In this document: piece after piece, positions 42,001-45,000 of the stretch
Layout of the letters: each line of letters opens with the position of its first letter
Numbering within the stretch: the first letter of the stretch is position 1
Assembly: GCF_050320075.1 (NCBI RefSeq)
Contig: NZ_CP190019.1
DNA from: Escherichia coli
Lineage (GTDB): Bacteria; Pseudomonadota; Gammaproteobacteria; Enterobacterales; Enterobacteriaceae
Length of the DNA: 64,000 bases
Strand: one strand, 5' to 3'
Program-made: the position numbers

Positions 42001-45000
42001 CCTTCCTTACTGTCATGGTGTGCCGGGAACCGCCGAGCCACGAGATTATGAGTAGCCCCTGAACAGAAACGTCACGATAATAGCCGTGAACGCCACCAGG
42101 CCCATTAAATCCCTTGCGTATTTGCAGCCCGTGCTGTCCAAACCTGTACCAGGTCCGATCAACACGCTCCAACCATTGAGGTACGAAAACACCGCCTGAC
42201 CGAACAAAAAATGCGTGATAGCCGCCGCAGCCATGACGCCGGAATCGTCAGACAGGCTGTAGCTGTTGACCATTGCCCTGTACGCCTGCATCTGAAATGG
42301 CTATTGCCCTGATGGGAGCCGGCTTTTCAGCCACCGACACCAGCGATGCCGTCAATATTCTTTACCCGATAACCATGACCGTACAAGCTAACAAGGCCTG
42401 GCAAGCCAGCGGACTTAAAAAGTCTTTTTTTCTACCATCCCACAAAAAAGTTCGTGGTGGAGAAAAGATAAGCTATGCAAGGCTTTAGGAGACGTGGTTT
42501 TTCAGGATGACGAAGAACGATTCGGCGCTAGGTGCAACATAGGTGCATCGCACGAGCGCTAGGAACGGCGAAAAAAGGCGGACGTGGCGAAATCGGTAGA
42601 CGCAGCAGACTTTAAAATTGGAGTGCCCGCGGGGAAATCCGCGGAGTAGAACCGCTCAAAGTCGGGGAACGCTAACGGGCAATACCCTAAGCCAATCCCG
42701 AGCCAAGCCCCTTCGGGGGAAGGTGTAGAGACTGGACGGGCGGCGCCTAAAGCCTTCGGGCAATGGCGAAGGGACAGTCCAGACCACGAACGTCATCAGA
42801 CGGCGGCGAAAGTCGAGGTGGTACGAAAATCTGCTTCTCTGTGAGAGTACGGGTTCGAGTCCCGTCGTCCGCACCACAAAGCCAAACATCCCTGCGATGA
42901 TCGACCTCTGGGCGTTTGGTCGTGAGCCCGCCACCCTCGCGCTACGCTTTGCGCAGGCGTCGAAGGCGATCAGGTGCGCCCATCGATTCCGTCGAGCACC
43001 ATCGCTGCGAGTTCATCGCTGGTGTGTGCACCACTATCGAGAACACGGGTTGTGCATGGAAGCCGTTCCCTTGCGGCCAAGCATCGGGCGACATTCGCTA
43101 ATCGCCACTCTCGAATCTCCGCATTTCGATTCGGGTCAGGATGCATGGTCTGGTTCGCGATCCGGTGACGCAATAGGTCCTCGTTGAGCGTCAGAAAGAT
43201 GTGCAGCAGCTGATCGTCGATCCGCCTTACCCCGTCGAGTATCTCAGTCAGATAGTCCGGGTGCACGAGCGTCATTGGGATGATGATGTCCTGCGAGTAA
43301 TTCCTTCGAATCTCCCTGACCGCCGCGATCGTAAGTCCCCTCCACAAGGGGAGATCCTGATAGTCTCCGCTCGCTGGCATGGGGACCGTTTCTTTCACCA
43401 CGAACCCGATTTCCTCGGGGTCAAAGATCAGCGATTTGGAACGCCGATCGCGCAGCCGCTTAGCGAGCGTCGTCTTTCCGGCGCCGAAAGGTCCGTTGAT
43501 CCAGATTATCATTGTCGACGGCCTCTAACCTGAAGGCTCGCAAGAGCGCTCGACGGCCTCGTGCGGAGGCACGATCGGAGTGGTTCCGAAATGCTTCTCA
43601 AGATAGGTGACGCCGAACGTCACGATGTCCTGCGCGTCGAACAGGTAGCACTGAGCAAAGCCCACGACACCTTCTCGATGGCGACCGAGCTTCACGTAAG
43701 CATTTGCTATAGTTTCAACCGCATCCGGCTTTCCTTCGATAGCAAAGCAATCGAGAATGCCGTTTGAATCGTAATCCGATGCCGTTTTCCAGGCGACTTC
43801 ACCGTCTCTTCCAAGCATCGGCATCTCATACGTCACCCACCGTTTGTTGGGGATATCGGCAACCGCCTCGGCGTAGTGCAATGCGGTAACGGAGTTTAGC
43901 GGCGCACCCAACAGCAGGGCCTTCCCGCCAAGGCGAACGAACCGCTCGACGGGCGATCCTTCCCCCAAGGCGTGACCGAGTTCGTGAGGCTCCGTCAGCG
44001 TTTCAGCCAGCGGACCAACCGCGACCATCGATGCATCGGGGTGCGCGCTGCGCCGCGCGCCGGGGGCTTGAACCAGAAATTGATTCAGCAGGCCGAACCC
44101 ACGGTAAGTCCCGGCTGTTGCGGGATCGAACGGCAGCCAGGTACGGCGGGCTTCGTCATCCAGCCGAGCGCCATTCAGAGTCTCCTCGTAGGGTGATCGG
44201 TCCCACGACGCGTATCCCATCACAGTGCCAGTCGGCCCAACCGCGGAGCGTAACGCGGCAACGACCGTCTCCGCTCCTCCTTCGACCGGACCAATCGCTT
44301 TAAGTGAGGCATGCACCATCAAGAGGTCACCGGTTTGGACTCCGAGTTTTTGAAGCGCCTCCGTTATTGCCTTCCGCGTATGCATCGCGATATCTCCTCT
44401 AAACTGCAAAACACTATACGCTGATGAATCCCCTAATGATTTTGGTAAAAATCATTAAGTTAAGGTGGATACACATCTTGTCATATGATCAAATGGTTTC
44501 GCGAAAAATCAATAATCAGACAACAAGATGTGCGAACTCGATATTTTACACGACTCTCTTTACCAATTCTGCCCCGAATTACACTTAAAACGACTCAACA
44601 GCTTAACGTTGGCTTGCCACGCATTACTTGACTGTAAAACTCTCACTCTTACCGAACTTGGCCGTAACCTGCCAACCAAAGCGAGAACAAAACATAACAT
44701 CAAACGAATCGACCGATTGTTAGGTAATCGTCACCTCCACAAAGAGCGACTCGCTGTATACCGTTGGCATGCTAGCTTTATCTGTTCGGGCAATACGATG
44801 CCCATTGTACTTGTTGACTGGTCTGATATCCGTGAGCAAAAACGGCTTATGGTATTGCGAGCTTCAGTCGCACTACACGGTCGTTCTGTTACTCTTTATG
44901 AGAAAGCGTTCCCGCTTTCAGAGCAATGTTCAAAGAAAGCTCATGACCAATTTCTAGCCGACCTTGCGAGCATTCTACCGAGTAACACCACACCGCTCAT

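What the first reader, a model, noticed from the sequence alone, without database searches (positions are those of the whole stretch)
42578..42876. tRNA-Leu(UAA) gene interrupted by a self-splicing-type group I intron inside the resistance region
The flanks fold into a class II tRNA: acceptor GCGGACG/CGTCCGC, U8, D-arm, anticodon stem GCAGA/UCUGC, long variable arm, T-arm GGGTTCGAGTCCC and encoded CCA. The anticodon loop CUU|AAAA is split after U34 by about 213 nt that end in G. The insert has a GAGU guide that can pair with the exon end ACUU, a P2-like hairpin with a GAAA-type loop, and the core strings CCGAGCCAAGCC and GAAGGUGUAGAGACUGGACGG that I recognise from the Azoarcus tRNA-Ile and cyanobacterial tRNA-Leu group I introns. 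Intron-containing tRNA genes are rare in bacteria and unexpected on an enterobacterial plasmid; this one sits 94 bp from tmrB and would normally go unannotated.
Basis: partly seen in the sequence, partly recalled or inferred. Interest (0 to 1): 0.85.

Follow-up and report, generated by a model that had tools for sequence, protein, structure and literature searches.

The report
Self-splicing-intron tRNA-Leu gene on resistance plasmids

Summary
Window 42578-42876 (+) is a class II tRNA-Leu(UAA) gene: a 35-nt 5' exon, a 213-nt insert after U34 that ends in G, and a 51-nt 3' exon with encoded CCA.

The insert is a subgroup IC3-type group I intron. All 85 pairs of a tRNA plus P1-P9 model are standard pairs here. 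Across 35 homologues, 94.5% of cells pair, against 34-44% when partners are slid. A covariance model built without the window scores its core at 137 bits. Rfam RF00028 gives only 36.8 bits, below its gathering score, and default ARAGORN finds nothing. RefSeq E. coli records show nothing over it.

The kind is classical (type "Leu.3Ug") and is widespread in Proteobacteria. What is new is the location:
- About 1,300 PLSDB plasmids carry it, as do 661 of 5,426 complete E. coli genomes.
- Its nearest relatives are alphaproteobacterial (Gemmobacter MAG, 89.9%).
- tmrB and aac(3)-II have native Rhizobiaceae homologues. One such lineage keeps a 98-nt remnant of this same tRNA/intron next to tmrB.

The gene is therefore most likely a hitch-hiker from the donor locus. 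Whether it is expressed or spliced in enterobacteria is untested, and I found no sigma-70 promoter. It is a new member of a known kind, of moderate interest.

The parts
42578..42612 (+). 5' exon of tRNA-Leu(UAA): acceptor 5' strand, D arm, anticodon-stem 5' strand, and C32 U33 U34
   Evidence: ARAGORN on the joined exons. Exon 1 is identical to that of Rhodobacterales MAG L098. Acceptor, D and anticodon stems pair in 99-100% of cells across 35 sequences.
42613..42825 (+). Group I intron of subgroup IC3 type, 213 nt, with no ORF for a homing endonuclease
   Evidence: RF00028 36.8 bits, E = 7.9e-8. Model R1 137.2 bits on the core 42646-42782. Structure counts. Only ORFs of 45 aa or fewer on the + strand.
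42609..42624 (+). P1 hairpin. The exon end (A)CUU plus intron UA pairs with the internal guide UGGAGU (guide 42620-42624). U35.G44 is the wobble pair at the 5' splice site.
   Evidence: The wobble pair is U.G in 35 of 35 sequences. The P1 helix pairs in 97.1% of cells.
42627..42644 (+). P2 hairpin with GAAA tetraloop (42634-42637)
   Evidence: All 7 pairs show changes on both sides across homologues; 91% of cells pair. The GAAA tetraloop is read from the sequence.
42652..42657 (+). P3 5' strand, which pairs with 42738-42743
   Evidence: 100% of cells pair; 4 of 6 pairs show compensatory change, e.g. C-G to U-A in 16 sequences.
42662..42723 (+). P4-P5-P5a and P6-P6a domain, including the CCGAGCCAAGCC string and a UUCG loop
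   Evidence: P4 pairs in 100% of cells and P6a in 97.9%, with compensatory changes. The MFE fold of the intron alone recovers these helices.
42728..42733 (+). P7 5' strand (GAGACU with a bulged A), which pairs with 42776-42780 to form the P3/P7 pseudoknot. By homology this is the guanosine-binding helix.
   Evidence: All 5 pairs are standard here. They are invariant in the alignment, but the 5' strand lies inside the retrieval pattern, so that invariance carries no weight.
42738..42743 (+). P3 3' strand
42744..42768 (+). P8-P8a with a CCUAAAG/AAUGG internal loop that resembles a tetraloop receptor, and a UUCG loop
   Evidence: P8 pairs in 99.3% of cells and P8a in 93.2%, with compensatory changes. 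The receptor reading is my inference from the sequence.
42776..42780 (+). P7 3' strand (AGUCC)
42783..42822 (+). P9 three-way junction: P9, P9a, and P9b with a GAAA loop
   Evidence: 94-98% of cells pair; 10 of the 13 pairs show compensatory changes. The MFE fold recovers all three helices.
42825..42825 (+). Terminal G (omega-G) before the 3' splice site
   Evidence: Invariant column G248 in alignment A1.
42826..42876 (+). 3' exon: A35 A36, anticodon-stem 3' strand, long variable arm, T arm, acceptor 3' strand, A73 and encoded CCA
   Evidence: A 91%-identical copy survives as a remnant next to tmrB in Shinella/Ensifer-like contigs.
42416..42577 (.). 162 nt upstream of the tRNA gene, origin unresolved. 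No sigma-70 consensus promoter.
   Evidence: No homology to the flanks of homologues. The promoter scan found nothing. The best relaxed match is 8 of 12, 217 nt upstream, which falls in the Pseudomonas-like fragment.
42970..43512 (-). tmrB-like AAA ATPase gene, convergent with the tRNA gene
   Evidence: Homologues outside the enterobacterial records are mostly alphaproteobacterial: 88% in Sinorhizobium-syntenic contigs, 81% in S. meliloti, 70% in Paracoccus.
43525..44385 (-). aac(3)-IId aminoglycoside acetyltransferase gene
   Evidence: NCBIfam AAC_3_II, 541 bits. RefSeq annotation. Window 42972-44419 is 86.3% identical to Rhizobiaceae-like contigs L130-132.
40821..42272 (-). Pseudomonas/Stutzerimonas-derived piece: a DUF3883 gene plus a 5'-truncated small membrane ORF. 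Not part of the tRNA's native locus.
   Evidence: 94.6% identical to L146/147, where these genes follow a roughly 1,700-aa helicase. The DUF3883 protein is 88% identical to that of Stutzerimonas kunmingensis.
42271..42415 (+). 145-nt fragment, 100% identical to a Pseudomonas-like metagenome contig. It is the 5' part of a 106-aa ORF, cut off at 42415.
39209..40820 (-). ISCfr1 (IS1182 family) at the left edge of the module
   Evidence: NCBIfam transpos_IS1182. Annotation of pCTX-M3. 89.6% identical to an ISCfr1-like copy beside DUF3883 in Stutzerimonas L124.

Best explanation
Window 42578-42876 is a structurally intact tRNA-Leu(UAA) gene whose anticodon loop is interrupted between U34 and A35 by a 213-nt IC3-type group I intron. 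This is the classical 'Leu.3Ug' arrangement.

**Mechanism (inferred from the family, not shown here).**
1. In the primary transcript, the exon end ACUU pairs with the intron guide GAGU to form P1, with a U.G wobble at the splice site.
2. The P3-P8 core folds around the P3/P7 pseudoknot. The L2 and L9b GAAA loops probably dock into receptor-like internal loops.
3. A free guanosine bound in P7 attacks the 5' splice site.
4. The terminal G (42825) then takes that site, and the exons are ligated into an 86-nt tRNA with encoded CCA.

**Why it is on the plasmid (inferred from comparative evidence).** The gene is a passenger. It lay convergent with tmrB and aac(3)-II in an alphaproteobacterial, Rhizobiaceae-like donor. 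It was carried along when that roughly 2-kb piece was joined to Pseudomonas-type DNA and ISCfr1 to form the aac(3)-IId resistance module. The intron has no endonuclease gene and is not itself mobile.

**In enterobacterial hosts.** The tRNA is probably redundant and neutral. Its expression is uncertain.
For: **Identity**
- The joined exons are called tRNA-Leu(taa).
- All 85 model pairs are standard in the window copy.
- On 35 homologues 94.5% of cells pair, against 34-44% for slid partners. 52 pairs show double changes, and 0 of 500 shuffles reach the observed values.
- The U.G at the splice site is present in 35 of 35 sequences, and omega-G is invariant.
- The MFE fold of the intron alone recovers P3-P6a, P8 and P9.
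- RF00028 gives E = 7.9e-8. Model R1, built without the window, gives 137.2 bits.
- The insertion site matches the published Leu.3Ug type, which the group I intron database cited there lists as IC3.

**Passenger origin**
- The closest tRNA/intron relatives are alphaproteobacterial: Gemmobacter MAG 89.9%, Rhodobacterales MAG 87.3%, Phenylobacterium 82.5%.
- Most TmrB homologues outside the enterobacterial records are alphaproteobacterial.
- tmrB plus aac(3)-II is 81-86% identical in DNA to native loci in Sinorhizobium-syntenic contigs and in S. meliloti Rm41 pSymA.
- Shinella/Ensifer-like contigs carry, at the same spacing after tmrB, a 98-nt remnant that is 91% identical to the last 44 nt of this intron plus the 3' exon.
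- The left flank is unrelated Pseudomonas-type DNA, with sharp breakpoints at 42272 and 42415.
- There is no intron ORF.

**Spread and annotation**
- 1,293-1,367 PLSDB plasmids carry it, almost all at 99% identity or more. So do 661 of 5,426 complete E. coli genomes.
- Nothing is annotated over it in the RefSeq E. coli records I checked. PLSDB tables list no RNA genes, so their silence says nothing.
Against: - No direct evidence of transcription, splicing or aminoacylation in any host.
- No sigma-70-like promoter or intrinsic terminator was found near the gene.
- The Rfam score is below the curated threshold.
- No genome was found with an intact copy of this tRNA gene next to tmrB. The adjacency rests on one lineage with a truncated remnant.
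- The best tRNA match (Rhodobacterales) and the best tmrB/aac(3) matches (Rhizobiaceae) come from different orders.
- The homologues were retrieved with a pattern containing the two core strings. Invariance of P6 and of the P7 5' strand in the alignment is therefore by construction.
- The plasmid copies are nearly clonal, so their intactness says nothing about selection.
Confidence: 0.85

Rival explanations
1. The gene is not just a passenger. It is transcribed, self-splices and is charged in Enterobacteriaceae, and the extra tRNA-Leu(UAA) gives plasmid or host a selectable benefit, for example better decoding of UUA/UUG in AT-rich acquired genes.
For: The gene is fully intact in about 1,300 plasmids. 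It has A73 and an encoded CCA. From my own knowledge, LeuRS recognition in E. coli depends mainly on A73 and tertiary features rather than the anticodon, and group I introns from other bacteria splice when expressed in E. coli.
Against: No promoter was found. From general knowledge, E. coli already has a tRNA-Leu(UAA) gene. The copies are nearly clonal, so conservation is uninformative. About 1,000 further plasmids hold aac(3)-II/tmrB-like DNA without the tRNA region (2,338 against about 1,300), and at least one such context lacks it outright.
Confidence: 0.08
2. It is an inert relic. The sequence looks intact but the ribozyme or the tRNA is non-functional, because it misfolds or is never transcribed in any current host.
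For: No promoter or terminator consensus. Only 162 nt of possibly native upstream DNA remain. The z-score of the intron's MFE is only -1.37.
Against: Every column that is invariant among 35 homologues is retained, and all 85 pairs form. The R1 score of 137 bits is that of a typical family member. The L141 remnant shows what decay looks like: an anticodon-stem mismatch and a T-loop change. The window copy has none of these.
Confidence: 0.15
3. The tRNA gene marks the boundary of an integrative element. aac(3)-II and tmrB lay next to a tRNA-Leu attachment site in the donor, and the gene may still act as an attachment site on plasmids.
For: In L141 and L148 only the 3' 98 nt of the gene remain beside tmrB. 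Beyond them lie resolvase, IS66-fragment and RES-toxin genes. Such a 3' remnant is what integration into a tRNA gene leaves behind (general knowledge).
Against: No integrase or second repeat copy was found within 7 kb. The remnant starts inside the intron, which is unusual for an attachment site. Simple truncation by rearrangement explains it equally well. This reading complements the passenger explanation rather than excluding it.
Confidence: 0.25
4. The resemblance to a tRNA and a group I intron is due to chance, or the region belongs to a protein-coding gene.
For: A 92-aa ORF overlaps the region on the minus strand (42656-42934). Rfam at gathering threshold and default ARAGORN report nothing.
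Against. In addition, homologues across many phyla conserve the RNA structure but not the flanks.
Confidence: 0.01

Closest known systems
Chromosomal tRNA-Leu(UAA) group I introns of Alphaproteobacteria (Gemmobacter MAG L120, Rhodobacterales MAG L098, Phenylobacterium L043, Sphingomonas L036)
   Same: Same host tRNA, same insertion site (CUU|AAAA) and same P1-P9 architecture. Identity over the whole pre-tRNA is 79-90%, and exon 1 is identical to L098.
   Different: Those genes sit in genomic contigs of their own hosts (several are MAG contigs) and share no flanks with the window. The window copy sits in an IS-bounded resistance module on enterobacterial plasmids.
Cyanobacterial and plastid tRNA-Leu(UAA) intron (type 'Leu.3Ug', e.g. 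Nostoc azollae or Anabaena)
   Same: Same tRNA, same splice position and U-1/omega-G. Both are classed as IC3.
   Different: From memory only, not tested here: cyanobacterial copies are AT-rich, are often longer in P6 and P9, and read GUGCAGAGACU where this one reads GUGUAGAGACU.
Azoarcus tRNA-Ile(CAU) IC3 intron, and the tRNA-Ile and tRNA-Arg(CCU) introns retrieved here
   Same: They share the core strings GAGCCAAGCC and GAAGGUGUAGAGACUNGACGG, the small size (about 200 nt) and the GAAA loops. tRNA-Ile- and tRNA-Arg-type hosts were retrieved with the same pattern.
   Different: Different host tRNA and a different position in the anticodon loop. P9 here is a three-way junction.
tRNA-Leu(UAA) introns on Mycetohabitans megaplasmids and Candidatus Vallotia plasmids (Burkholderiaceae)
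   Same: Also plasmid-borne and with no feature listed under the match. Same tRNA and splice site. RF00028 is likewise sub-threshold at 39 bits.
   Different: Only about 68% identical. They sit on large secondary replicons of their native hosts, not in a transposable resistance module.

Membership tests
Group I intron, subgroup IC3, bacterial tRNA anticodon-loop type 'Leu.3Ug' | Conserved core helices P3-P8, including the P3/P7 pseudoknot | tested here: met
   All pairs are standard in the window. P3 and P4 pair in 100% of cells, P6a in 97.9%, P7 in 100% and P8 in 99.3% across 35 sequences, with compensatory changes in P3, P6a and P8. P7 invariance carries little weight: its 5' strand lies inside the retrieval pattern.
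Group I intron, subgroup IC3, bacterial tRNA anticodon-loop type 'Leu.3Ug' | P1 formed by the exon end and an internal guide, with a U.G wobble at the 5' splice site | tested here: met
   U35.G44 is present in 35 of 35 sequences, and P1 pairs in 97.1% of cells.
Group I intron, subgroup IC3, bacterial tRNA anticodon-loop type 'Leu.3Ug' | Terminal guanosine (omega-G) before the 3' splice site | tested here: met
   G at 42825; the column is invariant in A1.
Group I intron, subgroup IC3, bacterial tRNA anticodon-loop type 'Leu.3Ug' | Insertion between nt 34 and 35 of tRNA-Leu(UAA): CUU/intron/AAAA | tested here: met
   This matches the definition given in Williams 2020.
Group I intron, subgroup IC3, bacterial tRNA anticodon-loop type 'Leu.3Ug' | Score at or above the Rfam RF00028 gathering threshold | tested here: not met
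   36.8 bits against 50, though E = 7.9e-8. The Mycetohabitans homologue also scores only 39 bits. The Rfam seed contains no bacterial intron. The family-specific model R1 gives 137.2 bits. This is a limit of the model's sensitivity rather than a failed biological feature.
Group I intron, subgroup IC3, bacterial tRNA anticodon-loop type 'Leu.3Ug' | Guanosine-dependent self-splicing activity | not testable with these tools
   Needs in vitro transcription with a GTP/Mg assay, or RT-PCR across the exon junction.
Class II tRNA-Leu | Cloverleaf with a long variable arm, UAA anticodon and discriminator A73 | tested here: met
   ARAGORN on the spliced sequence. Acceptor, D, anticodon and T stems pair in 99-100% of cells. 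The variable arm pairs in the window but aligns poorly across homologues (46.8%).
Mobile (homing) group I intron | Intron-encoded homing endonuclease ORF | tested here: not met
   The intron is 213 nt. Only ORFs of 36 and 45 aa overlap it on the + strand, and no room is left outside the structured core.

The most novel reading that the evidence does not exclude
The plasmid-borne gene is transcribed in E. coli, Klebsiella and other hosts, and it self-splices and is aminoacylated. A natural group I ribozyme and a foreign tRNA-Leu(UAA) would then be active in roughly one in eight sequenced E. coli strains. That could influence decoding of UUA/UUG codons, or the gene could serve as an attachment site for tRNA-targeting integrative elements on plasmids.
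Probability: 0.25. Interest if true: 0.6.

Novelty: new member of a known kind. Interest (0 to 1): 0.5.

Why it matters
**Annotation gap.** A catalytic RNA and a tRNA gene sit unannotated in one of the commonest aminoglycoside-resistance modules. About 1,300 PLSDB plasmids and 12% of complete E. coli genomes carry them. Standard tRNA finders and the Rfam gathering threshold both miss them.

**Provenance marker.** The tRNA/intron, together with the tmrB and aac(3)-II homologues, points to an alphaproteobacterial, Rhizobiaceae-like donor for the clinical aac(3)-IId/tmrB segment. It also gives a specific sequence to look for when hunting the progenitor. The module turns out to be a mosaic of alphaproteobacterial DNA, Pseudomonas-type DNA and ISCfr1.

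**Easy experiment.** Enterobacteria are not usually thought of as carrying group I introns outside phages. If this one is expressed, it is a ready-made natural test of ribozyme splicing and foreign tRNA use in clinical strains.

The RNA biology itself is textbook, which limits the surprise.

Tried and rejected
- **Exact core 42-mer in GTDB representative genomes:** no hit. A degenerate pattern then worked.
- **Shared flanks between the window and the closest tRNA homologues:** none by blastn or tblastx.
- **tRNA gene next to DUF3883 in Pseudomonas/Stutzerimonas:** absent; a helicase sits there instead.
- **Intact tRNA next to tmrB:** absent in Sinorhizobium-syntenic contigs and in S. meliloti Rm41 pSymA. 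Shinella/Ensifer-like contigs hold only a remnant.
- **Origin of the two 'hypothetical protein' ORFs.** The 75-aa ORF belongs to the Pseudomonas-type operon. The 63-aa ORF is a truncated Pseudomonas-type gene fragment fused to unrelated sequence. Neither belongs to the tRNA's native locus.
- **Promoter and terminator scans:** nothing convincing.
- **Second R1 hit at 58629-58744:** 15 bits, inside ORFs, no Rfam support. Treated as chance.
- **Literature.** No paper links tmrB, ISCfr1 or resistance plasmids with a tRNA intron. Subscription-only papers were not searched, so absence of a prior report is not proven.
- **Metagenome scan for the progenitor:** not run. An exact pattern would be swamped by plasmid copies of the module.
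Full report
**1. The observation**

Joining 42578-42612 to 42826-42876 gives an 86-nt sequence that ARAGORN folds as tRNA-Leu(taa). It has a 7-bp acceptor stem, a 3-bp D stem, a long variable arm, a GGGUUCGAGUCCC T arm, discriminator A and encoded CCA.

The insert is 213 nt (42613-42825). It follows U34 and ends in G.

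Standard tools miss the gene:
- Default ARAGORN on the 64-kb window finds no tRNA.
- With introns allowed, ARAGORN mis-places the intron and calls a 'tRNA-Stop(tta)'.
- Rfam at gathering thresholds lists only a group II intron, IS10 RNA-OUT and an attI leader.
- A permissive Rfam scan of 42450-43000 does give RF00028 (group I intron) over 42603-42795 at 36.8 bits and E = 7.9e-8. That is below the gathering score of 50.

**2. Is it a group I intron?**

I retrieved relatives with the pattern GAGCCAAGCC-N(4-34)-GAAGGTGTAGAGACTNGACGG from one genome per GTDB species.

In 81 of these loci I could delimit a complete split tRNA gene. The hosts include tRNA-Leu(UAA) and, by their anticodon loops, tRNA-Arg(CCU) and tRNA-Ile(CAU) types. 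They come mostly from Alpha- and Betaproteobacteria, but also from Microbacterium, Acidobacteria, Chloroflexi and candidate phyla.

I aligned 34 tRNA-Leu(UAA) examples with the window (A1). I then wrote down a structure by hand from the IC3 architecture: the tRNA arms plus P1, P2, P3, P4, P5/5a, P6/6a, P7 (pseudoknotted with P3), P8/8a and P9/9a/9b.
- In the window copy all 85 pairs are standard.
- Across the alignment 94.5% of cells pair, against 34-44% when the 3' partners are slid by 1-3 columns.
- 52 pairs carry changes on both sides, and no shuffle of 500 reaches the observed values.
- P2, P3, P5, P6a, P8, P8a, P9, P9a and P9b all show compensatory changes.
- The U.G wobble at the 5' splice site is present in 35 of 35 sequences. 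The terminal G is invariant.

One caveat applies. The two core strings were part of the retrieval pattern, so invariance of P6 and of the P7 5' strand is by construction and carries no weight.

Two independent checks agree with the model:
- The thermodynamic fold of the intron alone recovers P3-P6a, P8 and the P9 three-way junction.
- A covariance model of the core, built from the 34 homologues without the window (A2 and R1), scores 42646-42782 at 137.2 bits. Its E-value is rough, about 2e-38. This is the only strong hit in the window. A 15-bit hit at 58629-58744 lies inside ORFs, has no Rfam support, and I treat it as chance.

The intron has no room for an endonuclease gene.

**3. What is known**

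Williams (bioRxiv 10.1101/2020.01.27.920355) mapped 5,292 tRNA genes split by group I introns in about 80,000 bacterial genomes. In that paper 'Leu.3Ug' (CUU/…g/AAAA) is one of four classical types, all listed as IC3 in the group I intron database it cites. The paper notes that none of the 12 Rfam seed sequences is bacterial, which is why cut-offs of 18-20 bits were used. It does not mention plasmids or enterobacteria.

The kind is therefore well known, and it is not especially rare outside the Enterobacteriaceae. My literature searches found no paper linking tmrB, ISCfr1 or resistance plasmids to a tRNA intron. Subscription journals were not covered.

**4. Where the sequence occurs**

- The 601-nt region matches 1,367 PLSDB plasmids, 1,324 of them at 99% identity or more. 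Hosts include Escherichia, Klebsiella, Salmonella, Acinetobacter, Enterobacter, Citrobacter, Shigella, Aeromonas and Pseudomonas.
- The tRNA/intron itself matches 1,293 plasmids.
- It is in 661 of 5,426 complete E. coli genomes, at 614 plasmid and 90 chromosomal places.
- The RefSeq records I inspected annotate only flanking 'hypothetical protein' and 'AAA family ATPase' CDSs, with nothing over the tRNA. PLSDB tables list no RNA genes, so their silence is uninformative.
- About 2,338 plasmids hold aac(3)-II/tmrB-like DNA, so roughly half of such modules include the tRNA.
- Another aac(3)-II context lacks it. In a Salmonella IncFII contig (blaTEM, aac(3)-II, tmrB, IS91-like), similarity to the window ends inside the tmrB 3' end at window 43015.

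**5. Why it is there: the module is a mosaic**

From left to right the module consists of:
- **ISCfr1 plus a DUF3883 gene.** Window 39209-41994 is 89.6% identical to Stutzerimonas kunmingensis, where an ISCfr1-like element already sits beside DUF3883.
- **DUF3883 plus a small membrane ORF.** Window 40821-42272 is 94.6% identical to contigs where these genes follow a roughly 1,700-aa helicase. The small ORF is cut at 42272.
- **A 145-nt fragment.** Window 42271-42415 is 100% identical to the start of a 106-aa ORF in a Pseudomonas-like MAG contig. It is cut at 42415.
- **162 nt of unassigned sequence** (42416-42577).
- **The tRNA gene, a 93-nt spacer, tmrB and aac(3)-IId.**
- **An IS10-like fragment** to the right of 44419.

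Three lines of evidence place the tRNA-to-aac(3) segment in the Alphaproteobacteria:
- **tRNA/intron relatives.** The closest are a Gemmobacter MAG (89.9%), a Rhodobacterales MAG (87.3%, exon 1 identical), Phenylobacterium (82.5%) and Sphingomonas (79%).
- **TmrB relatives.** Outside the enterobacterial records they are mostly alphaproteobacterial: 88% in contigs syntenic with Sinorhizobium, 81% in S. meliloti, and 70% or less in Paracoccus, Geminicoccus, Azospirillum and Microvirga.
- **DNA identity.** Window 42972-44419 (tmrB plus aac(3)-IId) is 86.3% identical to those Sinorhizobium-syntenic contigs. It is 84% identical to L139 and 81.8% identical to S. meliloti Rm41 pSymA.

The decisive link comes from contigs L140-142 and L148-149. 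Their flanking genes cluster at 90% identity or more with Shinella, Ensifer and Sinorhizobium proteins. Similarity to the window does not stop at the tmrB stop codon. After a spacer of similar length comes a 98-nt stretch that is 91% identical to window 42782-42879. That stretch is the last 44 nt of the intron (P9) plus the whole 3' exon and CCA. The sequence upstream of it is unrelated.

The remnant shows decay: a mismatch in the anticodon stem and a T-loop change. Beyond it lie resolvase, IS66-fragment and RES-toxin genes.

An intron-containing tRNA-Leu(UAA) gene convergent with tmrB is therefore an ancestral arrangement in at least one Rhizobiaceae-like lineage. The plasmid module preserves the intact version of it. 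The remnant could be an attachment-site duplication or a simple truncation. I could not decide between the two.

**6. How it most likely works**

Shown here: the gene has every structural feature of a functional Leu.3Ug pre-tRNA.

Inferred from the family:
1. P1 forms between ACUU and GAGU.
2. Exogenous guanosine bound in P7 attacks after U34.
3. Omega-G (42825) replaces it, and the exons ligate to give a tRNA that needs no CCA addition.

Unknown: whether it is transcribed in enterobacteria. No sigma-70-like promoter or intrinsic terminator was found. The best relaxed promoter match is 8 of 12, and it lies 217 nt upstream in the Pseudomonas-like fragment.

From general knowledge, E. coli has its own tRNA-Leu(UAA), so the gene is probably redundant there. 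The near-clonality of the plasmid copies means that intactness is not evidence of selection.

**7. Verdict**

The observation and the interpretation are both correct. The RNA is a new member of a classical family, not a new kind. Its interest lies in three points:
- It is an unannotated ribozyme and tRNA spread through clinical plasmids.
- It acts as a provenance marker tying aac(3)-IId and tmrB to an alphaproteobacterial donor.
- The question of whether it is active in enterobacteria is open and easy to test.

Confidence is about 0.95 for identity and about 0.8 for the hitch-hiker origin.

Noticed in passing
window 42972-44419; L130-132, L139, L140-142, L148-150: The clinical aac(3)-IId plus tmrB pair has native-looking homologues at 81-86% DNA identity in Rhizobiaceae replicons. 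These include S. meliloti Rm41 pSymA, Sinorhizobium-syntenic metagenome contigs, and Shinella/Ensifer-like contigs. This points to a Rhizobiaceae-like origin for this resistance gene pair. I found no paper stating it.
   Followed up: partly
window 40821-42272; L124-129, L136-138, L145-147: The plasmid's DUF3883 (ScoMcrA_N + NOV_C) gene and the small membrane ORF come from a Pseudomonas/Stutzerimonas operon: a roughly 1,700-aa DEAD/UvrD helicase, then a 100-aa ORF, then DUF3883. It looks like a defence-island module. In Stutzerimonas kunmingensis an ISCfr1-like element already sits next to it.
   Followed up: partly
window 42271-42415; L151, L152: A 145-nt fragment is 100% identical to the 5' part of a 106-aa ORF in a Pseudomonas-like MAG contig, where it lies next to IS21 IstB and an integrase fragment. 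The RefSeq 'hypothetical protein' WP_000951934 (42297-42488) is therefore a chimeric, truncated ORF.
   Followed up: yes
window 46890-47039 and 49112-49188 (+): Rfam hits to group II intron domains: D1-D4-7 at 119.7 bits and Intron_gpII at 60.1 bits. A group II intron lies about 4 kb downstream of the group I intron.
   Followed up: no
window 44466-44535 (-) and 44528-45322 (+): IS10 RNA-OUT (98.8 bits) and a partial IS4-family transposase ORF form the right boundary of the aac(3)-IId segment.
   Followed up: no
window 26855-26933 (+): Rfam AAC_AAD_leader / attI site (71.2 bits), indicating a class 1 integron cassette array upstream.
   Followed up: no
L002 1489-1836 (NZ_CP062180.1); H101-H113: tRNA-Leu(UAA) genes with homologous group I introns sit on Mycetohabitans megaplasmids and Candidatus Vallotia plasmids. 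Most of these PLSDB records list no feature under the match, though PLSDB tables omit RNA genes. RF00028 scores only 39 bits there.
   Followed up: partly
L071, L059: Some retrieved tRNA-Leu genes have ...GACTC|…|(C)AAAATC, with C rather than U before the splice site. They may be the 'Leu.3Cg' type that Williams 2020 flagged as needing a splicing test.
   Followed up: no
window 58629-58744 (+): A weak 15-bit hit of model R1 inside overlapping ORFs, with no Rfam support. Judged to be chance.
   Followed up: yes
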